A stretch of DNA of 64,000 nt from an uncultured Gammaproteobacteria bacterium (GCA_964450885.1 CAYVFE010000001.1:502572-566571); one strand, 5' to 3'. Positions 32,300-42,445 are shown, counted from the first letter of the stretch. The notes: a model not told the origin generated them from the letters alone. A program made the numbers and translations.

Positions 32300-34069
32300 T
32301 TAGCCCTGAATCCACTTCGTTAATTCTGTATATGAAAATGTATTTATAATGTCCTTTTTTTCGCACCAGCCACGCTTGGCGACGGAGACTCCATACTTCA
32401 TATTATCCATATGGGTTACCGCATGACTATCGGTATCTATAACGAATTTACATCCACTTTCTCTCGCTGAAAATACCAAATCATCACGGAGGTCAAGTCG
32501 GGTAGGCCAGGCATTAATTTCGAGTGCTTTATTCTTTTCTTTGATATATTTAAAAATTTTATCCCAGTCTGCATCATATCCGTTCCTTTGATTGATCAAC
32601 CTTCCCGTGGGGTGGGCAAATATTTTAGCTTTGGGGTGTGATAGCCCGGACAGTATTCTCTTTGTCATTTTTTCACGTTCGGTCTTGAACGAGCTATGAA
32701 TTGAGACGATTGCCATATCTAACAATTCAAGACATTTATCTGATAAGGCCAACTTTCCTGAGGTCAAAATATCAACTTCGAGTAAATTAACTATTCGTAT
32801 ATTTTTGTTACTCTTTTTTAGTTGTTCAATTTTATTATTCCTTTTAACGAGAATCTGATATATTTCATTCTCATCGTGGTTGCCGATGCTAGGATTGTGC
32901 TCAGAAAAACCGATATAATCATAATTTAACGATATAGCCTTGTCGATCATCGTCTGCATAGAGTCTTTCCCATAGTCGTGGCTGGAGTCCAGTGGATAGT
33001 CGGAGTGTATATGAAAGTCTCCTTTAATATCGTCTATTTCAACTAGCTTTGGCAATTTGTCTTTTAGAGCAGCTTCAATTTCCCCTCTATTCTCTCTTAT
33101 TTCAGGTTGTATCCATGGAAGACCTAGGAATTTATAAAACTCCTTTTCGTCACTGAATTTTTTAAGTTTCCCATTCTTTAATTTGATACCTTTTTCTGAC
33201 AGTGAATAGCCTTTTTTAATCGCGTATTCCCGAAGTTTTACGTTGTGTTCCTTGCTTCCTGTAAAGTGCTGTAATAGTGAGCCTATCTGCTCTGGACTTA
33301 GGACCATAAGATCTACCTGCTTATTCCCAGACAATACGATCGATGCTGTTATTTCTCCTTTTTCTATAATTCTATCTTTATGTGGGTAATTTACGAAATG
33401 TTCCAGAACTTTTGAGGGATTTTTGGAAGTTATTGCTATATCAACGTCTCCAATGGTTGGTTTTTTTCTTCTGAGGCTGCCAAGAGGATATGCTTCAATA
33501 GTCTCCTTCTCTTTTTTGAGGTATTCCAAGATATCATCGGCTATGTCTTGGGCCAGGGGGAGAACCATTCTGGCTGATTTTGTTTTTCCGACCCGATATT
33601 CCTCAATGGCTGTTATTATGTCTGCTTGAGATTTCTCTCCAAAACCATCAAGGGGTGATATCTTATTTTCTTTTGCGAGCTTATAGATTTTGTCGATCAC
33701 ATCTTTCGGGTCTTTGAGCCCAAAAGCATCGACGATTCTGAAAGCTTTTTTCGGGCCAAAAGATGGCACATCCAAAAGCGGGAAAATAGCCGGAGATAGC
33801 GCGCCTAGTATTTCATCGAAATGCTTTACTTTACCTTTCTCAAAAAGTTCTAATAAATGCGCTCTTATGCTTGGTCCAACACCTGGGAGTCTGTCTAGTT
33901 GGTCTTGAGAAAGCAGATCTTTTACTTCCTTGCTCGAGCTTTCTATCGTGTCTGCTGCCTTTTTGTACGCTAATATCTGAAATCTATATTTACCCTCATT
34001 TTTTATAGTGTAAGCGCCTGCGACGTTATTTAAAAGTCTGGCAATTTCTAAGTTAGAAAAAGACTTCAT
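32300..34069 (-). CDS. Family X DNA polymerase with a C-terminal PHP domain (PolX).
   Basis: HhH motifs, nucleotidyltransferase motif GDVDIAITS, and a PHP domain (DFHIHSDYP...HSSF...DTDSH). I place the start at MKSFSNLEIARLL. The longer track ORF (to 34285) is the antisense translation of tRNA-Asp. Confidence 0.85.
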   Translation of the reverse strand: MKSFSNLEIARLLNNVAGAYTIKNEGKYRFQILAYKKAADTIESSSKEVKDLLSQDQLDRLPGVGPSIRAHLLELFEKGKVKHFDEILGALSPAIFPLLDVPSFGPKKAFRIVDAFGLKDPKDVIDKIYKLAKENKISPLDGFGEKSQADIITAIEEYRVGKTKSARMVLPLAQDIADDILEYLKKEKETIEAYPLGSLRRKKPTIGDVDIAITSKNPSKVLEHFVNYPHKDRIIEKGEITASIVLSGNKQVDLMVLSPEQIGSLLQHFTGSKEHNVKLREYAIKKGYSLSEKGIKLKNGKLKKFSDEKEFYKFLGLPWIQPEIRENRGEIEAALKDKLPKLVEIDDIKGDFHIHSDYPLDSSHDYGKDSMQTMIDKAISLNYDYIGFSEHNPSIGNHDENEIYQILVKRNNKIEQLKKSNKNIRIVNLLEVDILTSGKLALSDKCLELLDMAIVSIHSSFKTEREKMTKRILSGLSHPKAKIFAHPTGRLINQRNGYDADWDKIFKYIKEKNKALEINAWPTRLDLRDDLVFSARESGCKFVIDTDSHAVTHMDNMKYGVSVAKRGWCEKKDIINTFSYTELTKWIQG

Positions 34070-34076
34070 AATTGAT

Positions 34077-34085
34077 ATGATATCA
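34077..34085 (-). promoter_or_regulatory. Extended -10 element (TGaTATCAT) 7 nt upstream of the PolX ATG; candidate leaderless-mRNA promoter.
   Basis: Minus strand reads gTGaTATCATatcaatTATG. Confidence 0.3.
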
Positions 34086-34100
34086 CACGCACAAATCTCA

Positions 34101-34129
34101 TTGACGGTAAACTTAATTTCTGGTAGTAT
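34101..34129 (+). promoter_or_regulatory. Candidate promoter for tRNA-Asp: -35 TTGACG, 17 nt spacer, extended -10 TGgTAGTAT.
   Basis: TTGACGgtaaacttaatttcTGgTAGTAT lies 12 nt upstream of the tRNA 5-prime end. Confidence 0.4.
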
Positions 34130-34141
34130 TATGAGCATTGT

Positions 34142-34215
34142 GGGGTGGTAGCTCAGTTGGCTAGAGCGCTTCCCTGTCACGGAAGAGGTCGCGGGTCCGA
34201 GTCCCGTCCATCCCG
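34142..34215 (+). tRNA. tRNA-Asp (GTC).
   Basis: Hand-folded cloverleaf: acceptor GGGGTGG/CCATCCC, anticodon stem CTTCC/GGAAG with loop CTGTCAC, T-loop TCCGAGT, discriminator G. CCA is not encoded. Confidence 0.85.
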
Positions 34216-34368
34216 CATAAAATTTGATAGACCTTTTAATGCAAGTTGTTTTTGCAATTTGTATAAAAAACGAGTATATATACAACAGTTAAGTTTTACT
34301 TGACACTCAATCTTGCCCTGAATTTAAAAGCTTCTGCCCAGAAAGGAGGCGAAAAACTTCTTAATAAA

Positions 34369-35004
34369 ATGGCAAAAAAAACAACAAAAAACAATTTCGA
34401 TATTAAACAGCTTATAGATAACTCAGGTTCTTATAAGAATCTTATTTACGGAGCAGTAACAGTTTTGATTCTTGCTGTAATCGTGTTTTTAGGAATAAGG
34501 ACACTTTCTCAAAATCAAGGAGATATCAATGATGATGCTGTAACTGTAAGTGAGGATCAGAACGCAGTCGAATATGATGTAGCAGAGGGAGAGACCTTGT
34601 GGAGTATTTCTGAAAAAGTTTATGGAACTGGATTCAACTGGCAGGTAATTGCTGATGCGAATAATCTTGAGGACGGAAACAATCTTGAGGCAGGAACAAA
34701 GCTAACGATTCCAAATCTAACACCAACAGCTGCTGAGGATGAAGAGTCCGAGCAAGCGATGGAAACAGAAGAAAACGTGGCGGAAGCAACTGTTACTCCA
34801 GCACCAACAAGTGCTGAAACGGATACCCAGGATCCTAAGGCATCAAATGCTACCGAATATACGGTTAAACACGGTGATAATCTTTGGAAGATTGCTGTAG
34901 CTGAATATGGAGATGGTTACAAGTGGACAGAAATTGCTAAAGCAAATAAGCTCGCAAATCCTAATTTGATCCACTCTGGCAACAAGTTGACTCTACCTAG
35001 ATAG
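34369..35004 (+). CDS. Membrane-anchored LysM-domain (peptidoglycan-binding) protein with two LysM repeats.
   Basis: TM helix, then YDVAEGETLWSISEKVYG...LEAGTKLTIP and YTVKHGDNLWKIAVAEYG...HSGNKLTLP. AAAGGAGG lies upstream of the ATG at 34369; the track starts at TTG 34300. Confidence 0.75.
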   Translation: MAKKTTKNNFDIKQLIDNSGSYKNLIYGAVTVLILAVIVFLGIRTLSQNQGDINDDAVTVSEDQNAVEYDVAEGETLWSISEKVYGTGFNWQVIADANNLEDGNNLEAGTKLTIPNLTPTAAEDEESEQAMETEENVAEATVTPAPTSAETDTQDPKASNATEYTVKHGDNLWKIAVAEYGDGYKWTEIAKANKLANPNLIHSGNKLTLPR

Positions 35005-35124
35005 GTCCTGTCCTTAATAAGTGCTTTAGTTGGTGATCTGATTCGAATATAATAATAAAAGAATCGATCGAAAAAGGCTTTGCGAGGATAGACCATCTAG
35101 ATAGATAAGACTCCTCGTAATATT

Positions 35125-35196
35125 GCGAGGGTAGTTCAGCGGTAGAATGTCTCCTTCCCAAGGAGAAGGTCGCGGGTTCAATTCCCGTCCCTCGCT
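35125..35196 (+). tRNA. tRNA-Gly (CCC).
   Basis: Acceptor GCGAGGG/CCCTCGC, anticodon stem TCTCC/GGAGA with loop TTCCCAA, T-arm GCGGG-TTCAATT-CCCGT, discriminator U. CCA is not encoded. Confidence 0.8.
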
Positions 35197-35232
35197 CACA
35201 TATTTCCGAACTTGTCGGATTCATATGTCAGG

Positions 35233-38090: not shown

Positions 38091-39389
38091 TTATTCCTCC
38101 AGCATCTCTTCATATTCTGAATCGTAGATAGGTTTTATGAGAAATCCCTTCATATCTTTGTAACCAATTAGTATAGGAAATGCTAAATGTGAACGATCAG
38201 CAACCGTTGCTGTGACTGTCATTTTTTTGTCTCCGATCTCGATAGTGACGTTTGCAGTGGGTCTATATCCGGATCCGCTAGCCGAGGACACGAAAACGGA
38301 TTCACCAGTAAGCGGGATATTGAGTTTTTCCAGAAGGGTCCTGTCTATGGAGGAGCGTTTTGCGCCAGTATCCATTTTTGCTTTAGTTTTGTGCAGCTCT
38401 CCATGTGCATGAATTGTTACATCCTGATTTATGGAGAGCACTGTAGGCGATATCTTGATCTTCTCGGAAAAATCTGATGCAAATAGATTTTTGCCTATTT
38501 CAACACCTCTATCGGGATTGCCGACGACCATATCCTCAACGCGTTCTAGCCTGCTTCTCAGTGAGGATCTATTTGCATTTTGGATAGAGAGCCCAGGTCG
38601 CGCGTTTACCTCTAGGATGAGAGGACCCCTGTCCCTATCCAATGCTATATCTATGCCTGCATAACCCAGATTTACTGCAAATTGCGTATTTGAGGCTATT
38701 TTTAACATTTCATCCCAGAAGGGGAGTTTGATTCCCCTGGTTTTTATTTTTGTATCAGGGATGAAGTCCACGTGCTGATCATAGAGGACTGCGCCAGTCG
38801 TTATCCCTGTTCTTATATCGATTCCAAATCCTAACGCTCCTTGGTGCAGGTTGGCTTTTCCATTGGATAGCGAGGTGGGTAGTCTAAGCATGGCCATTAT
38901 GGGGACTGCGTTAAAAGATATAACTCTTATATCAGGAATTCCTCTATCACGGTACTTCTTGAAGAAAGGATGGAGGATTATGCGTTCCTCTATGAAAGCT
39001 ACATCAGGTAGGAATTTTAGCGAATATGCTCCTTCAAATATGTCTAGGACATGCGATTCCAACTGCGGGATGGAATACGAAAGATTTTCGTTGATATATG
39101 CGCTCTCATTTTCAAATTTTCTTACTGGTAGTATTCCAAGTCCTCCATATCCACGGGCCGGCTTTATAACAAAGCCTTTTTTTGGCAGCGATGACCAATC
39201 AAAAGAGATCAGTGCCTCTCTGCTATAAAATGCTTGGATTAGATTTGGTGTAGGTATTCCATTTTCTGCAAGGATTCTTTTTGTCTCCAGTTTGTCATCA
39301 GCGATTTTTTTTGAATCACTGGAATTATATTTGTTGATAAACAGGAAATTTCGGGCATTCATGCCCAGTATGTTTCTACTTACCGGCAT
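38091..39389 (-). CDS. Fusion protein: RimK-like ATP-grasp amidoligase (alpha-L-glutamate ligase-related) plus a C-terminal retropepsin-like aspartic peptidase domain.
   Basis: ATP-grasp: FVIKPARGYGGLGILPV, LEVNARPGLSIQNAN. C-terminal ~120 aa carry the aspartic protease motif MDTGAKRSSI (DTGA) and a beta-rich fold. Overlaps the upstream 7TM gene by 14 nt. Confidence 0.7.
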   Translation of the reverse strand: MPVSRNILGMNARNFLFINKYNSSDSKKIADDKLETKRILAENGIPTPNLIQAFYSREALISFDWSSLPKKGFVIKPARGYGGLGILPVRKFENESAYINENLSYSIPQLESHVLDIFEGAYSLKFLPDVAFIEERIILHPFFKKYRDRGIPDIRVISFNAVPIMAMLRLPTSLSNGKANLHQGALGFGIDIRTGITTGAVLYDQHVDFIPDTKIKTRGIKLPFWDEMLKIASNTQFAVNLGYAGIDIALDRDRGPLILEVNARPGLSIQNANRSSLRSRLERVEDMVVGNPDRGVEIGKNLFASDFSEKIKISPTVLSINQDVTIHAHGELHKTKAKMDTGAKRSSIDRTLLEKLNIPLTGESVFVSSASGSGYRPTANVTIEIGDKKMTVTATVADRSHLAFPILIGYKDMKGFLIKPIYDSEYEEMLEE

Positions 39390-40326
39390 GTCGGGAAATG
39401 GTATTGAATCTAAAGTACTCTAAGATTCTAAGTCCGAAGTATCTTCCTATAAGGATATTTATAGGAATCAGTAAGAAGATAAGTTCGGGATATAAAAGGA
39501 AAGTGTCTCTGATAGTCTGGGCCGAAAGAACCACAAATCCTACCACTCCCAATGCAAAGGTTACAAGAGTAATTACAAGCATTTCCTGAAAGCTTCTTTC
39601 AAGTTGTACGGAAATTATTTGTTCGCTCAAAAGTATCAAGAGAAGTACGGGAAATATAGATAGCTGTCTTACAACGAGAATTCCCGCCATCGCACTGATG
39701 GTTATGACTGAGAAAATAATGATAGAGACTATAAACATAGATAAAGCCATTTTAGGAAGCTGCATGATCCTGACTTTTCTCAGAATCAATCTAGCGAATG
39801 TCGAACCCAATATGATCGATGCCAAAAGTATAAGTCCCGCAGTAATTCCTGTAGAAAGAAGCGTAATAGACAGCGCTATCGGCACAAGAAGCCCAATACT
39901 GGGGAGACCGACAACATGCCGTATAAATGCAATAATCGTCGCAAGCATAGGAAGCAGGAGTATTAATATTATTGTTCTCGAAGGAACTCCGGCACGAACA
40001 GATTCCTGAACAGAGTATGCGGCAAAATTGAAAGGAGTCAGCGTTTTGGCCGGTCTCTTTTCGAACAGCACAAGAACCTCATCTCTTGAGGCTGGTTCTT
40101 CGGGACGAGTGACGTCTTCTTCGGCGATTTTCTTAAGTGCTTCAACCTCTTCGGCTGATGGAGATGAGCTTGCCGAATCCGTTGCAAGCTCATCTTCGAG
40201 CTCCTCATCAGCGGTGTTTGCAGGAATTAGTCTTATCTGGGCATTAGAATAGTTTGCCAGTGACAAGAATAGGAAAAATGCTGAAAAAAGTATAAGTAAT
40301 TTTGTAGTTAGAGCAAGTTTTAACAT
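39376..40326 (-). CDS. 7-TM membrane protein with signal peptide and acidic Ser/Glu-rich ectodomain; the 7TM module usually found fused to an inactive transglutaminase and associated with ATP-grasp/peptidase pairs.
   Basis: Signal peptide, then EDELATDSASSSPSAEEVEALKKIAEED, then seven hydrophobic helices. I place the start at the ATG (MLKLAL); the track starts 9 nt upstream at TTG. Confidence 0.6.
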   Translation of the reverse strand: MLKLALTTKLLILFSAFFLFLSLANYSNAQIRLIPANTADEELEDELATDSASSSPSAEEVEALKKIAEEDVTRPEEPASRDEVLVLFEKRPAKTLTPFNFAAYSVQESVRAGVPSRTIILILLLPMLATIIAFIRHVVGLPSIGLLVPIALSITLLSTGITAGLILLASIILGSTFARLILRKVRIMQLPKMALSMFIVSIIIFSVITISAMAGILVVRQLSIFPVLLLILLSEQIISVQLERSFQEMLVITLVTFALGVVGFVVLSAQTIRDTFLLYPELIFLLIPINILIGRYFGLRILEYFRFNTISRHAGK

Positions 40327-40355
40327 ATTCAACAATTATAGTATATTATATCATC

Positions 40356-40841
40356 ATGAACATACTTGGAATAGACCCAGGGCTCGGAAGGACAGGGTGG
40401 GCGATAGTAGAGGAGCTCAATGGAAAGTGTATACTTATCGACTACGGTTGCATAGAAACTGAAAAAAATACAAAAGAGGCTGGGAGGATAAAAACGATTT
40501 ATTCCGAGATAAAAAAAATCATAGATAAACATAATCCGGAGATTTTGTCTGTAGAAAAACTTTTCTTTAATAAGAATGTAACAACAGCGCTAAGCGTAGG
40601 CCAGGCTCGTGGTGTTGTGGTTCTGGCAGCAGTGAATAAAGGACTTATAATCGAGGAATATACGCCTTTGCAGGTAAAGATTGCAGTTACCGGGTATGGA
40701 AGGGCAGATAAAAATCAGGTTGGAGAGATGGTAAAGAGCAGTTTTGGACTCAAATCTATCCCCAAGCCGGATGATGCTGCTGATGCAATAGCGATAGCGC
40801 TAACACATGCTGTATCTTACAAAATTAGGAATTTGGCATAA
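40356..40841 (+). CDS. ruvC: Holliday junction resolvase RuvC.
   Basis: ILGIDPGLGRTGWAIVE with conserved catalytic D/E positions. Confidence 0.93.
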   Translation: MNILGIDPGLGRTGWAIVEELNGKCILIDYGCIETEKNTKEAGRIKTIYSEIKKIIDKHNPEILSVEKLFFNKNVTTALSVGQARGVVVLAAVNKGLIIEEYTPLQVKIAVTGYGRADKNQVGEMVKSSFGLKSIPKPDDAADAIAIALTHAVSYKIRNLA

Positions 40842-40863
40842 GTTAGGGTAGTATAATAGGGTT

Positions 40864-41436
40864 ATGATAGGGTATCTTTCTGGTGAGATTTTTGAAATAT
40901 TTGAGAATAGTGTCATACTTCTGGTGAATGGGGTGGGATACAAGGTATTTCCAACGGGTAGATTTCTTGAAAAAACCAAGCAGAAAGAGGCTTCGTCTTT
41001 ATATATAACCAGTGTTATAAAAGAGGATGTTTTTGACCTATATGGATTCGAGACTCTCGAGGAGAAAAATCTATTTGAGCTTATTATAAATATTTCCGGT
41101 ATTGGTCCAAAAACAGCACTGGGAATTCTCTCAAAATCAAAAATTGATGAAATCATGAGTGCTATATCCGCAGGAGATGCGTCATTTTTTACAGGTATTC
41201 CTCGACTAGGAAAGAAAAATGCACAAAAATTGATTATCGAATTGAGAAGCAAAGTAGGTAATGTGACACCTTTGTCTTTTGTGGAGAATCAGGAGAGGAC
41301 AGAGCTTTTGGATGCGCTCAGGAGTTTTGGTTATCAGGAAAAAGAAATTTTACCTATAATGTCCCAGGTAGACAAGAACGGGGGCAGGCTGGAGGAGAAG
41401 ATTGCTTTTGCTCTCAAACATCTTGGAAGAAAATAA
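40864..41436 (+). CDS. ruvA: Holliday junction branch migration protein RuvA.
   Basis: MIGYLSGEI...[10 protein letters not shown]; HhH domain ([13 protein letters not shown]). Confidence 0.9.
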
Positions 41437-41437
41437 A

Positions 41438-42445
41438 ATGAAAAATGATATAGACATAAATAATCAGGAAGAAATTGTTATTCAAAGTCTCAGAGCATCT
41501 TCATGGCCGGAATTTATTGGTCAGGAGGTGGTCAAAAAAACGCTTTTCATATCTATGAAGGCCGCAAAAAAACGCGAAGAGAGTTTGGAGCACTTACTCT
41601 TCTATGGACCTCCTGGGCTAGGAAAGACTACAATTTCACATATTATCGCAAAAGAAATGGGAGCGAATATCCGCATAACATCCGGTCCGGCTCTGGAGCG
41701 ATCAGGAGATCTCGCATCGATACTTACTAACCTTTCTGAAGGAGATGTGCTTTTTATCGACGAGATACACAGACTGAATAAGGTTGTAGAAGAAACGCTT
41801 TACCCTGCTATGGAGGATTTTGCTCTCGATATAGTAATAGGGAAAGGGCCTTCTGCAAGGACTCTGCGCATGGATCTTCCGAGATTTACTATAATCGGAG
41901 CCACTACAAAAGCTGGGATGATTTCAGGGCCACTGCGTGACCGTTTTGGGGTAATTAGCCGTCTCACATTTTACAACCATAAAGAGCTTACAGAGATCAT
42001 CAAGAATGCCGCTGCAAAATTAAATGTTGAGGTCGAAGATTCGGCTTGCGAAGAACTTGCCACACGTGGCCGTGGCACGCCTCGTATAGCTTTAAGGCTC
42101 TTGAAAAGAGCAAGAGACTTTGCCGCGATTCATGGCCAGGGTGTTATTACGAAAGATATCGTAAAAAAGACGCTTGATGTGCTTGAGATAGACCATAAGG
42201 GTCTTGATGAATCTGACAAGAGATATCTTATGGCTATACTAGAGAAGTATGATGGTGGACCGGTGGGCTTGGAGACGCTTGCTGCAGCACTTTCTGAGGA
42301 CAGCGCTACGATCGAAGAGGTTATTGAGCCATACCTGATGCAGATAGGCTTTGTTAAAAGAACCAGTAGGGGAAGAATGCTCACGGAGAATGCACTCTAC
42401 CATCTGGGGATTGAAAAGGATCCCAAGCAGAAAAAACTTCTATAA
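41438..42445 (+). CDS. ruvB: Holliday junction ATP-dependent helicase RuvB.
   Basis: FIGQE.VK..L.I...[20 protein letters not shown]; Walker [11 protein letters not shown] start at the Met immediately after the ruvA stop. Confidence 0.95.

What the first reader, a model, noticed from the sequence alone, without database searches (positions are those of the whole stretch)
38091..40326. 7TM membrane protein coupled to an ATP-grasp ligase fused to a retropepsin-like peptidase
Two minus-strand genes overlap by 14 nt, which suggests translational coupling.
- The upstream gene encodes a signal peptide, an acidic Ser/Glu-rich ectodomain and seven TM helices.
- The downstream gene encodes a RimK-like ATP-grasp amidoligase (KPARGYGGLGI; EVNARPGLS) fused in one polypeptide to a retropepsin-like aspartic peptidase (MDTGAKRSSI).

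Comparative genomics of ATP-grasp amidoligases has described a conserved but functionally uncharacterised triad: a 7TM module (usually fused to an inactive transglutaminase), an alpha-L-glutamate-ligase-related ATP-grasp, and a separate retropepsin-like protease. This window differs from that triad in two ways: the ligase and peptidase are fused, and the 7TM protein has no transglutaminase domain but carries a low-complexity acidic ectodomain.

A plausible function is ATP-dependent addition of amino acids (for example Glu) to a peptide or protein tail followed by processing, regulated at the membrane. This could act as a signalling or peptide-modification system in a reduced genome.
Basis: partly seen in the sequence, partly recalled or inferred. 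Interest (0 to 1): 0.78.

Follow-up and report, generated by a model that had tools for sequence, protein, structure and literature searches.

The report
Compact membrane-coupled glutamate ligase–peptidase pair
A tiny-genome (Patescibacteria) bacterium carries a two-gene, stripped-down version of the recently described Rlo/Rim systems, with the peptide-building enzyme and the peptide-cutting enzyme welded into one protein; this puts the protease on the inside of the membrane rather than outside, which helps narrow down how these poorly understood systems work.

Summary
Two minus-strand genes overlap by 14 nt.

- **Gene 1** (39376-40326) encodes a probable signal peptide, an 85-aa acidic ectodomain and a PF14402 7TM core with no transglutaminase domain.
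- **Gene 2** (38091-39389) encodes an RloC-type ATP-grasp (PF14397, 2e-62; TIGR02291, 4e-80) fused to a retropepsin. The retropepsin matches RloA crystal structures at 4e-9 and keeps AKxDTGA plus residues that appear to correspond to RloA's poly-Glu-binding Arg residues.

- The "uncharacterised triad" is now RloABC of Pseudomonas (2025). A RimB-RimK hybrid has also been described.
- The fusion is common, not unique: more than 120 clusters at 90% identity and about 49 of the top 150 representatives at 50% identity. Neighbourhoods were checked in seven related loci, and a 7TM gene lay immediately upstream in all of them.
- The ectodomain cannot be the substrate. It lies on the wrong side of the membrane and its longest acidic run is 3 residues.

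Sister architectures strengthen the module logic. The 7TM is fused directly to the ligase in some. A MATCAP carboxypeptidase accompanies a degenerate retropepsin in others.

Most likely function: membrane-docked synthesis and self-trimming of alpha-linked acidic (Glu) chains. This is a new variant of a known kind, of moderate interest.

The parts
39376..40326 (-). Gene 1: 316-aa membrane protein. It has an RloB-type 7TM core without a transglutaminase domain. An alternative TTG start lies at 40335.
   Evidence: ORF. PF14402 on residues 120-310, 1.7e-19. NF052267 RloB matches only its C-terminal 7TM part. 542 homologues; the top 120 are all about 300-330 aa and carry PF14402 only.
40237..40326 (-). 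Residues 1-30: hydrophobic N-terminal segment, a probable signal peptide ending ...SNA-Q.
   Evidence: Hydropathy segment 1-28 and AF2 helix 2-24. Q30 is invariant in 29 homologues. Cleavage is inferred, not predicted with a dedicated tool.
39982..40236 (-). Residues 31-115: acidic extracytoplasmic region with a conserved motif (LATDSA..SSPSAE..., DVTRPEEP, LF.KRP, N..A..VQ.SV..GVP).
   Evidence: 19 D/E against 9 K/R, longest acidic run 3. Conserved columns A58, T73, E76, L87, R91, N100, Q107, G113, P115. Low pLDDT with four short helices.
39379..39981 (-). Residues 116-316: seven TM helices plus a basic cytoplasmic C-terminal tail, GRYFGLRILEYFRFNTISRHAGK.
   Evidence: AF2 helices 116-139, 147-159, 161-184, 189-214, 219-243, 246-268 and 282-313. 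K/R cluster in the predicted inside loops and the tail. G294-F307 is nearly invariant. In other lineages this end is fused directly to the ligase N-terminus.
39376..39389 (-). 14-nt overlap (ATGCCGGTAAGTAG) between the stop of gene 1 and the start of gene 2. Likely translational coupling.
   Evidence: An identical overlap length is seen in L001, L002 and L004.
38091..39389 (-). Gene 2: 432-aa cytosolic bifunctional protein, an ATP-grasp ligase followed by a retropepsin-like peptidase.
   Evidence: AF2 model with pLDDT 83.
38520..39377 (-). Residues 5-290: RloC-type ATP-grasp amino-acid ligase domain. It lacks the N-terminal pre-ATP-grasp domain of RimK.
   Evidence: PF14397 at 211 bits and TIGR02291 at 269 bits. 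Foldseek top hits are ArgX/LysX, RimK and cyanophycin synthetase at about 2e-10. Invariant K76, D247, E260, N262, R264. The alignment to RimK starts at RimK residue 78.
38130..38447 (-). Residues 315-420: retropepsin-like aspartic peptidase domain with a short flap and no cysteines.
   Evidence: Profile against PDB: RloA 9g59 at 4.1e-9, 9g58 at 2.5e-7, 2pma at 3.3e-6, Ddi1 at 0.03. Foldseek viral library: acid protease at 2.7e-11 with TMt 0.80, plus caulimoviral and retroviral proteases. 97% of 120 homologues have no Cys in the last 135 residues, which include this domain.
38361..38381 (-). Catalytic motif A337-K-M-D340-T-G-A343.
   Evidence: A337, K338, D340, G342 and A343 are invariant in 30 homologues. 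The motif aligns to AK(M/L)DTGA of the RloA structures.
38094..38129 (-). Residues 421-432: acidic C-terminal tail IYDSEYEEMLEE, a feature specific to this clade.
   Evidence: Tails are net negative in 87% of 119 close homologues, and 72 of them end in -EE. More distant ligase-peptidase representatives have short basic tails instead.
40327..40355 (.). 29-nt divergent intergenic spacer between gene 1 and ruvC. On the minus strand a TATAAT (40340-40335) lies 8 nt before the ATG, and no Shine-Dalgarno sequence is visible.
   Evidence: Sequence. The pattern scan listed promoter-like sites here only for the ruvC (+) strand. A leaderless or short-leader transcript is an inference.

Best explanation
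This is a compact two-gene version of the Rlo/Rim type of system in a Levyibacteriota-like (Patescibacteria) genome.

Shown here:
- A 7TM membrane protein of the RloB family core, without the periplasmic transglutaminase-like domain, is co-encoded with and probably translationally coupled to a soluble protein with no signal peptide or TM segment.
- That soluble protein joins an RloC-type ATP-grasp ligase to a retropepsin-like peptidase. The peptidase has an intact catalytic Asp and conserved Lys/Arg residues; by motif position and spacing these appear to be the ones RloA uses to bind poly-glutamate.

Inferred:
- The ligase sits at the inner face of the membrane, docked on the conserved basic C-terminal tail of the 7TM protein.
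- It uses ATP to extend alpha-linked acidic (most likely Glu) chains, either free or on the C-terminus of an acceptor.
- The fused peptidase acts as a homodimer. It cuts chains once they are long enough and may also stimulate the ligase, as RimB does for RimK. The result is a self-limiting synthesis and trimming cycle.
- The 7TM core either gates this activity in response to the envelope or passes the product or acceptor across the membrane. Its ectodomain is interchangeable between lineages.

Unlike Pseudomonas RloABC, trimming here happens on the cytoplasmic side.
For: Domain identities.

Catalytic competence:
- Invariant K76, D247, E260, N262 and R264 in the ligase, and A337-K338-x-D340-[TS]-G342-A343, R376 and R399 in the peptidase, across 30 homologues of 52-88% identity.
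- K338/D340 have the K46/D48 spacing of RloA. R376 and R399 are 23 residues apart, like RloA R114 and R137, whose mutation most reduces poly-Glu cleavage (PMC12239564).

Cytosolic location of the peptidase: no signal peptide or TM in the fusion, and none of the Cys pair that marks periplasmic RloA.

Coupling of the 7TM protein to the ligase:
- A 7TM gene lies immediately upstream of the ligase gene in L001-L007, while the flanking genes vary.
- 7TM-ligase single-chain fusions occur in 8 of the top 150 representatives, and one representative is peptidase-7TM-ligase.

A peptidase partner appears to be required. In 51 MATCAP-containing fusions the retropepsin DTG motif is lost in 47, while the MATCAP HExxxH motif is kept in 47.

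Precedents: RimK makes poly-alpha-Glu; RimB cleaves it and stimulates RimK fourfold; the RimBK hybrid is active (PMC11957791). Deleting rloB or rloC suppresses the rloA1-3 mutant (PMC12239564).
Against: - No biochemical data exist for any RloC-type ligase, so its amino-acid and acceptor specificity are unknown. Identity to RimK is only about 20%.
- The ligase fails the curated cut-offs of TIGR02291 (269 against 314 bits) and of RimK (51 against 143 bits).
- It lacks the N-terminal domain that many ATP-grasp enzymes use for acceptor binding.
- Pfam's name for the family (sugar-transfer associated), together with PBP1a, S11 peptidase, GalT and YdjC contexts in related loci, points equally to envelope glycopolymer chemistry.
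- Extended sister operons carry 2-3 further ATP-grasp ligases, which suggests a heteropeptide rather than pure poly-Glu.
- The 7TM fold has no solved relative, so its role is open.
- Contact between the two proteins was not modelled.
Confidence: 0.55

Rival explanations
1. Envelope-precursor modification. The ligase adds one or a few amino acids to a membrane-bound cell-wall or surface-glycopolymer precursor (for example a lipid-linked intermediate) held by the 7TM protein. The peptidase edits or removes the added peptide. The system tunes wall chemistry rather than making poly-Glu.
For: - The PF14397 family is named as sugar-transfer associated.
- The pair lies next to PBP1a plus an S11 carboxypeptidase in L003, and near PBP1a in L005.
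- A GalT-like gene lies directly upstream of the 7TM gene in L006 and L007.
- One fusion carries a YdjC deacetylase domain.
- Pseudomonas rlo mutants have cell-shape, beta-lactam and hypo-osmotic phenotypes (PMC12239564).
Against: - In the window the pair is flanked only by ruvCAB, a yraN-like gene and L19/CTP-synthase-like genes (flank names are by inspection of the translations), and flanks vary between loci.
- The peptidase keeps residues that appear to be RloA's poly-Glu-binding residues.
- The partners that replace the retropepsin (MATCAP) act on protein or peptide C-termini.
- No glycosyltransferase is conserved with the pair.
Confidence: 0.2
2. RimK-like ribosome modification. The fusion is simply a RimK/RimB equivalent that adds Glu residues to ribosomal protein S6 and trims them, and the 7TM protein is only a membrane anchor or is functionally unrelated.
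For: - The cytosolic ligase-plus-retropepsin combination mirrors RimK-RimB and the RimBK hybrid (PMC11957791).
- RimK structures are among the best fold matches.
Against: - The RimK family model scores 51.5 bits against a cut-off of 143, while the RloC-type model scores 269 bits.
- The domain order is the opposite of RimBK.
- The RimK N-terminal domain is missing.
- The 7TM gene is next to the ligase gene in every locus checked and is covalently fused to it in other lineages. That is hard to reconcile with a ribosomal target.
Confidence: 0.07
3. Self-modification. The enzyme's own acidic C-terminal tail (…YEEMLEE) is the primer that the ligase extends and the peptidase trims, or it is a pseudo-substrate that blocks the basic peptidase channel. 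Either would give an autoregulatory timer.
For: - Tails are net negative in 87% of 119 close homologues, and 72 of 119 end in -EE, like the RimK acceptor end of S6.
- The best structural match for the ligase is ArgX in complex with LysW, a carrier protein; that LysW is used through its acidic C-terminus is my own recollection.
Against: - The acidic tail is confined to the window's own 50%-identity clade. 31 of 35 other full-length ligase-peptidase representatives do not have net-acidic tails; most are short and basic.
- It therefore cannot be the family's conserved substrate.
Confidence: 0.08

Closest known systems
RloABC of Pseudomonas aeruginosa (Lormand et al., mBio 2025, PMC12239564)
   Same: The same three modules are present: the 7TM core (PF14402), the RloC-type ATP-grasp (PF14397/TIGR02291) and a retropepsin-like peptidase (PF05618) with DTGA and conserved Lys/Arg residues that appear to be RloA's poly-Glu-binding residues. 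The genes are adjacent and co-oriented.
   Different: - The peptidase is fused to the C-terminus of the cytosolic ligase. It has no signal peptide or disulfide pair and a flap about 30 residues shorter, so it acts inside the cell rather than in the periplasm.
- The 7TM protein lacks the inactive transglutaminase domain and has an 85-aa acidic ectodomain instead.
- There are two genes instead of three.
- The host is Patescibacteria, whereas RloB was reported as 96% Proteobacteria.
- All curated NCBIfam Rlo cut-offs are missed.
RimK-RimB and the RimBK hybrid (Little et al., JBC 2025, PMC11957791)
   Same: A cytosolic ATP-grasp Glu ligase works together with a cytosolic retropepsin that cleaves poly-Glu. 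A natural single-chain hybrid exists and is proteolytically active.
   Different: - In RimBK the peptidase is N-terminal to a true RimK. Here it is C-terminal to an RloC-type ligase that lacks RimK's N-terminal domain.
- Rim systems have no 7TM partner and act on ribosomal protein S6.
Comparative-genomics triad: 7TM-inactive transglutaminase + alpha-L-glutamate-ligase-like ATP-grasp + pepsin-like peptidase (Iyer, Abhiman, Burroughs and Aravind 2009). This is recalled from memory; the paper was not available.
   Same: This is the gene-neighbourhood family from which Pfam PF14397, PF14402 and PF14400 derive.
   Different: Here the system is fused and lacks the transglutaminase domain. I could not check whether that paper already lists this architecture.
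Tubulin tail cycle: TTL/TTLL ATP-grasp ligases and the MATCAP carboxypeptidase
   Same: An ATP-grasp ligase that adds residues to an acidic C-terminal tail is paired with a peptidase that removes them. Sister proteins of the window's enzyme carry a MATCAP (PF08014) domain in the same chain.
   Different: The window's own protein has no MATCAP domain. The similarity is one of logic and of shared domain families in relatives, not orthology.

Membership tests
RloC / alpha-L-glutamate ligase-like protein (TIGR02291; Pfam PF14397) | Score above the family model's curated cut-off. | tested here: inconclusive
   PF14397 scores 211.3 bits against a cut-off of 31.4, which is met. TIGR02291 scores 269.1 bits against a cut-off of 314.2, which is not met. 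It is still far above every other ATP-grasp model.
RloC / alpha-L-glutamate ligase-like protein (TIGR02291; Pfam PF14397) | Intact ATP-grasp nucleotide and Mg site. | tested here: met
   K76, D247, E260, N262 and R264 are invariant in 30 homologues. The EVNxxPG block aligns to the corresponding RimK block.
RloC / alpha-L-glutamate ligase-like protein (TIGR02291; Pfam PF14397) | Encoded next to a 7TM_transglut membrane protein. | tested here: met
   Seen in the window and in L001-L007.
RloC / alpha-L-glutamate ligase-like protein (TIGR02291; Pfam PF14397) | Stand-alone single-domain protein of about 320 aa. | tested here: not met
   The protein is 432 aa with a C-terminal peptidase domain.
RloB (NF052267; PF14400 + PF14402) | 7TM module. 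| tested here: met
   PF14402 scores 70.8 bits against a cut-off of 25, on residues 120-310.
RloB (NF052267; PF14400 + PF14402) | N-terminal periplasmic inactive transglutaminase domain. | tested here: not met
   NF052267 matches only its positions 312-505 of 508 (37 bits against a cut-off of 900). No transglutaminase family is hit, and the ectodomain is only 85 aa.
RloA secreted retropepsin-like peptidases (NF052262-4; PF05618) | Retropepsin fold with the D-T-G-A catalytic motif. | tested here: met
   PF05618 scores 29.9 bits against a cut-off of 27. RloA structures match at 4e-9. Foldseek finds viral aspartic proteases at 2.7e-11.
RloA secreted retropepsin-like peptidases (NF052262-4; PF05618) | Basic residues that bind poly-Glu (K46, R114, R137 in RloA). 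| tested here: met
   K338, R376 and R399 are invariant and have the same K-x-D and R-to-R (23 residues) spacing. Their functional role is inferred from PMC12239564.
RloA secreted retropepsin-like peptidases (NF052262-4; PF05618) | N-terminal signal peptide, periplasmic location and a conserved disulfide pair. | tested here: not met
   The domain is internal to a soluble fusion. No Cys is present in the last 135 residues in 97% of homologues. The NCBIfam RloA models score 20-31 bits against cut-offs of 210-280.
RloA secreted retropepsin-like peptidases (NF052262-4; PF05618) | Cleaves runs of 8 or more Glu. | not testable with these tools
   This needs an enzyme assay.
RimK / RimBK hybrid | RimK family ligase with its N-terminal domain. 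| tested here: not met
   TIGR00768 scores 51.5 bits against a cut-off of 143.4. PRK10446 scores 21.5 against 331. The alignment starts at RimK residue 78.
RimK / RimBK hybrid | Peptidase domain N-terminal to the ligase. | tested here: not met
   Here the ligase comes first (residues 5-290) and the peptidase second (315-420). The RimBK domain order is taken from PMC11957791.
RimK / RimBK hybrid | Modifies ribosomal protein S6. | not testable with these tools
   No S6 gene was identified in the window, and proteomics would be needed.

The most novel reading that the evidence does not exclude
The Patescibacteria 7TM/ATP-grasp/peptidase modules form one family of membrane-coupled machines. They build short acidic peptide chains on the cytoplasmic face, trim them with either a retropepsin or a MATCAP carboxypeptidase, and pass the product through the 7TM core to the cell surface. 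The window holds the minimal form. Relatives have up to three extra ATP-grasp ligases, a MATCAP domain, or all modules in one chain. On this reading, cytosolic trimming is ancestral and Pseudomonas RloA is a secondarily exported version. The ligase-plus-MATCAP pairing would be a prokaryotic forerunner of the eukaryotic tubulin-tail ligation and removal cycle.
Probability: 0.15. Interest if true: 0.75.

Novelty: new variant of a known kind. Interest (0 to 1): 0.45.

Why it matters
The biochemical role of RloB and RloC in Pseudomonas is unknown, even though the operon affects osmotic tolerance, biofilm formation and beta-lactam sensitivity.

This natural minimal variant shows three things:
- The 7TM core, not the transglutaminase domain, is the conserved partner of the ligase.
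- The ligase docks at the cytoplasmic end of the 7TM protein. In other lineages the two are one chain.
- A peptidase appears to be an obligatory companion. It can sit on either side of the membrane, or be replaced by a MATCAP carboxypeptidase.

These constraints favour a model in which a ligase product must be trimmed. They also give a small two-protein system that could be reconstituted to find the ligase's substrate. Finally, the finding extends the Rlo-type system from Proteobacteria into reduced-genome Patescibacteria.

Tried and rejected
- **Housekeeping ATP-grasp (Ddl, CPSase, GshB, PurK):** only marginal hits, E 3e-6 to 0.15. Rejected.
- **Ectodomain as ligase or peptidase substrate:** it is on the wrong side of the membrane, and its longest acidic run is 3 residues (at most 5 in 29 homologues), against the 8 or more Glu that RloA needs. 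Rejected.
- **Own acidic -EE tail as the conserved substrate:** the feature is confined to the window's own clade. Kept only as a low-probability rival.
- **Recent horizontal island:** GC content of 0.41 matches the neighbouring sequence, and synteny with ruvC is shared with distant relatives. Rejected.
- **Further copies in the window:** local HMMs for the ligase, peptidase, 7TM and MATCAP domains found only the two genes.
- **Dead ends:**
  - Exact look-up of the 100%-identical 7TM protein found no contig.
  - The genome-contig scan, run with a single protein as query, returned only one locus, so the taxonomic range is poorly sampled.
  - Iyer et al. 2009 is not held.
  - The afdb50 library was unavailable.
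  - The 7TM model has no significant PDB neighbour; the best E-value is 1.5.
  - Cluster look-ups gave almost no organism names.
  - Literature searches for the Pfam/TIGR identifiers, for Patescibacteria plus ATP-grasp, and for rloB/rloC found nothing beyond the two 2025 papers.
Full report
**1. Observation**

The ORF list shows two minus-strand genes. One spans 38091..39389 (432 aa). The sequence at the junction reads ...CGACATGCCGGTAAGTAGAAAC. The start of the 432-aa gene therefore lies 14 nt inside the end of the 7TM gene.

Both genes have very strong homologues: E 1.7e-268 for the ligase-peptidase and E 4.9e-182 (100% identity) for the 7TM protein. GC content here (0.41) matches the rest of the window.

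The closest genome record is a Candidatus Levyibacteriota MAG, at 84% amino-acid identity, with the same gene order and the same 14-nt overlap. Levyibacteriota belongs to the Patescibacteria, Microgenomates group.

**2. What the two proteins are**

The 432-aa protein has two domains.
- Residues 13-285 match PF14397 ATPgrasp_ST at 2.1e-62.
- Residues 307-416 match PF05618 (the RimB/RloA-type family, still labelled "zinc protease" in this Pfam copy) at 6e-7, and PF13650 Asp_protease_2 at 2e-6.
- In NCBIfam the best model is TIGR02291, alpha-L-glutamate ligase-like, at 4.2e-80. Its 269 bits fall below the curated 314. RimK, LysX, Ddl and CPSase models score far lower.

An AlphaFold2 model built on 30 homologues has pLDDT 83.
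- Its N-terminal part matches ArgX/LysX, RimK and cyanophycin synthetase at about 2e-10.
- Against viral structures, its C-terminal part matches a phage acid protease (E 2.7e-11, target-normalised TM-score 0.80). It also matches caulimoviral and retroviral proteases, including HIV-1 protease.
- A profile of the C-terminal domain finds the RloA crystal structures 9g59 (4.1e-9) and 9g58 (2.5e-7), Legionella 2pma (3.3e-6) and Ddi1 (0.03).

Across 30 homologues of 52-88% identity, the invariant columns include:
- the ATP-grasp residues K76, D247, E260, N262 and R264;
- the peptidase residues A337, K338, D340, G342, A343, R376 and R399.

K338-x-D340 reproduces K46-x-D48 of RloA. R376 and R399 sit in the same RP and DRS motifs, with the same 23-residue spacing, as RloA R114 and R137. 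Mutating those two RloA residues most reduces poly-Glu cleavage. The flap region is about 30 residues shorter than in RloA.

The fusion has no signal peptide or TM segment. It also lacks the Cys pair that marks periplasmic RloA proteins. The peptidase is therefore predicted to be cytosolic.

The 316-aa protein matches PF14402 7TM_transglut on residues 120-310 (1.7e-19). It matches only the C-terminal 7TM part (positions 312-505 of 508) of the RloB model.
- The AF2 model (pLDDT 72) gives an N-terminal hydrophobic helix, four short helices in a low-confidence region, and seven TM helices.
- K/R residues cluster in the loops predicted to face inward and in the C-terminal tail.
- The ectodomain is acidic (19 D/E against 9 K/R). 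It carries a motif conserved in all 29 aligned homologues, so it is not mere low complexity.
- The most conserved stretch outside the membrane is the cytoplasmic tail, GRYFGLR..EY.RF.
- The 7TM fold has no significant neighbour among solved structures.

**3. How common it is, and its relatives**

The top 120 clusters at 90% identity are all full-length fusions of 424-466 aa. The top 120 homologues of the 7TM protein are mostly about 300-330 aa and carry PF14402 only.

An exhaustive profile search of 1.84 billion representatives gave 5200 hits at E up to 1e-3 and 546 at E up to 1e-30. I classified the best 150 with local HMMs:

| Architecture | Count |
|---|---|
| Ligase + peptidase | 49 |
| Ligase + (often degenerate) peptidase + MATCAP | 51 |
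| 7TM + ligase in one chain | 8 |
| Peptidase + 7TM + ligase | 1 |
| Ligase alone | 41 |

Pfam confirmed these architectures. It also found versions with a second ATP-grasp, with a YdjC domain, and with a transglutaminase-core + 7TM + ligase arrangement.

In the MATCAP fusions the retropepsin DTG motif is lost in 47 of 51, while the MATCAP HExxxH motif is kept in 47 of 51. In the plain ligase-peptidase class, DTG is kept in 42 of 49. The active peptidase thus appears to be either the retropepsin or the metallo-carboxypeptidase.

A 7TM gene lies immediately upstream of the ligase gene in every locus examined, but its ectodomain differs:
- 85-aa acidic here;
- PKD repeats in L005;
- none (a 245-248 aa protein) in L006 and L007.

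In L005-L007 the module follows yebC-ruvC. In L007 it is followed by ruvA-ruvB. In the window it is divergent from ruvC-ruvA-ruvB, at 40356-42445; the ruv names in the window are my reading of the translations, not a tool result. L006 and L007 carry two or three further ATP-grasp genes and, in L006, a MATCAP gene.

The window has no further copy of any of these domains.

**4. Mechanism**

Published work supplies the following:
- RimK makes poly-alpha-Glu and adds Glu to S6.
- RimB cleaves poly-Glu and stimulates RimK about fourfold.
- A RimB-RimK hybrid (peptidase first) from Desulfotalea is proteolytically active (PMC11957791).
- RloA is a secreted retropepsin that cuts runs of 8 or more Glu.
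- Deleting rloB or rloC suppresses the rloA1-3 triple mutant. That paper's authors read this as all rlo genes acting in the same processes; my further inference is that RloB and RloC make something that must be trimmed (PMC12239564).

Combined with the anatomy above, the best explanation is a membrane-docked, self-limiting synthesis and trimming cycle for alpha-linked acidic chains. Both enzyme activities would sit on the cytoplasmic face.

What is shown: the domain identities, the conserved catalytic and substrate-binding residues, the genetic coupling, and fusion of the 7TM C-terminus to the ligase in relatives.

What is inferred: Glu as the substrate, the nature of the acceptor, stimulation of the ligase by the peptidase, and whether the 7TM protein regulates or translocates.

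**5. Rivals**

- **Envelope-precursor chemistry.** Supported by PBP1a, S11 peptidase, GalT and YdjC contexts, by the Pfam family name, and by the Pseudomonas cell-shape phenotypes. It lacks any conserved glycosyl-transfer partner.
- **S6 modification.** Disfavoured by the model scores, the domain order and the consistently adjacent 7TM partner.
- **Self-modification of the acidic -EE tail.** Attractive within the window's clade: 72 of 119 tails end in -EE. More distant ligase-peptidase representatives lack the feature.
It fails on topology and on the lack of long acidic runs.

**6. Comparison and novelty**

The pair works like Rlo/Rim systems and shares their domain families. It fails the defining features of each named member:
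- no transglutaminase domain (RloB);
- no secretion signal or disulfide pair (RloA);
- not stand-alone, and below the equivalog cut-off (RloC);
- wrong ligase subfamily and wrong domain order (RimBK).

I found no paper describing the Patescibacteria version. The Rlo paper reports RloB as 96% proteobacterial. I could not read Iyer et al. 2009, which may list such architectures.

Verdict: a real, conserved, database-visible but apparently undescribed variant of a known kind. It is useful mainly because it constrains the Rlo mechanism.

Noticed in passing
L005 4990-7377; proteins P0246, P0264, P0271 and about 48 other representatives: A large sister class of about 790-aa proteins has an RloC-type ATP-grasp, a retropepsin-like domain and a MATCAP (PF08014, tubulin tyrosine carboxypeptidase family) domain. 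The retropepsin DTG motif is lost in 47 of 51, while the MATCAP HExxxH motif is kept in 47 of 51. One member is from an uncultured bacterium (EKD49309.1), where it is mis-named as ketopantoate hydroxymethyltransferase.
   Followed up: partly
Proteins P0345 (657 aa), P0364 (832 aa), P0337, P0354, P0369, P0375: Single-chain versions exist. One is TM anchor + retropepsin + 7TM + ATP-grasp, with the peptidase on the opposite side of the membrane from the ligase. Another is transglutaminase-core + 7TM + ATP-grasp. Several are 7TM + ATP-grasp. Peptidase location relative to the membrane therefore differs between lineages.
   Followed up: partly
Window 40356-42445 (ruvC, ruvA, ruvB by inspection of the translations); L005, L006, L007: The 7TM-ligase module sits at the ruv locus in several distantly related lineages. 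It lies downstream of yebC-ruvC, and in L007 upstream of ruvA-ruvB. In the window it is divergent from ruvC. The reason for this persistent linkage is unknown.
   Followed up: no
L006 5400-9398; L007 6786-9842: Extended operons add two or three further ATP-grasp ligase genes, a MATCAP gene (L006) and a DUF3541 gene (L007) after the ligase-peptidase gene. A GalT-like gene lies before the 7TM gene. This suggests that some versions assemble a heteropeptide.
   Followed up: no
Window 40327-40355: Only 29 nt separate the divergent starts of the 7TM gene and ruvC. A TATAAT on the minus strand lies 8 nt before the 7TM ATG. A plus-strand TATATT/TATTAT ends 7-9 nt before the ruvC ATG. No Shine-Dalgarno sequence is visible, so both genes may be leaderless or have very short leaders.
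   Followed up: no
Window 40237-40239 (residue Q30 of the 7TM protein): A Gln immediately after the predicted signal-peptide cleavage site (...A-Q) is invariant in all 29 aligned 7TM homologues, although the sequence around it is variable. It could be a conserved cleavage or N-terminal pyroglutamate position.
   Followed up: no
L002 10470-11314; L004 9438-11258: A roughly 606-aa Transglut_core (PF01841) protein lies about 3-4 kb downstream of the pair, after uvrA, in two loci whose 7TM proteins lack a transglutaminase domain. This may be coincidence or a separated partner.
   Followed up: no
Window 34142-34216 and 35125-35197: tRNA-Asp and tRNA-Gly genes lie inside mechanically extended or spurious ORFs (32300..34285 from its TTG start, and 34997..35224). 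The true start of the 661-aa ORF is probably further downstream.
   Followed up: no
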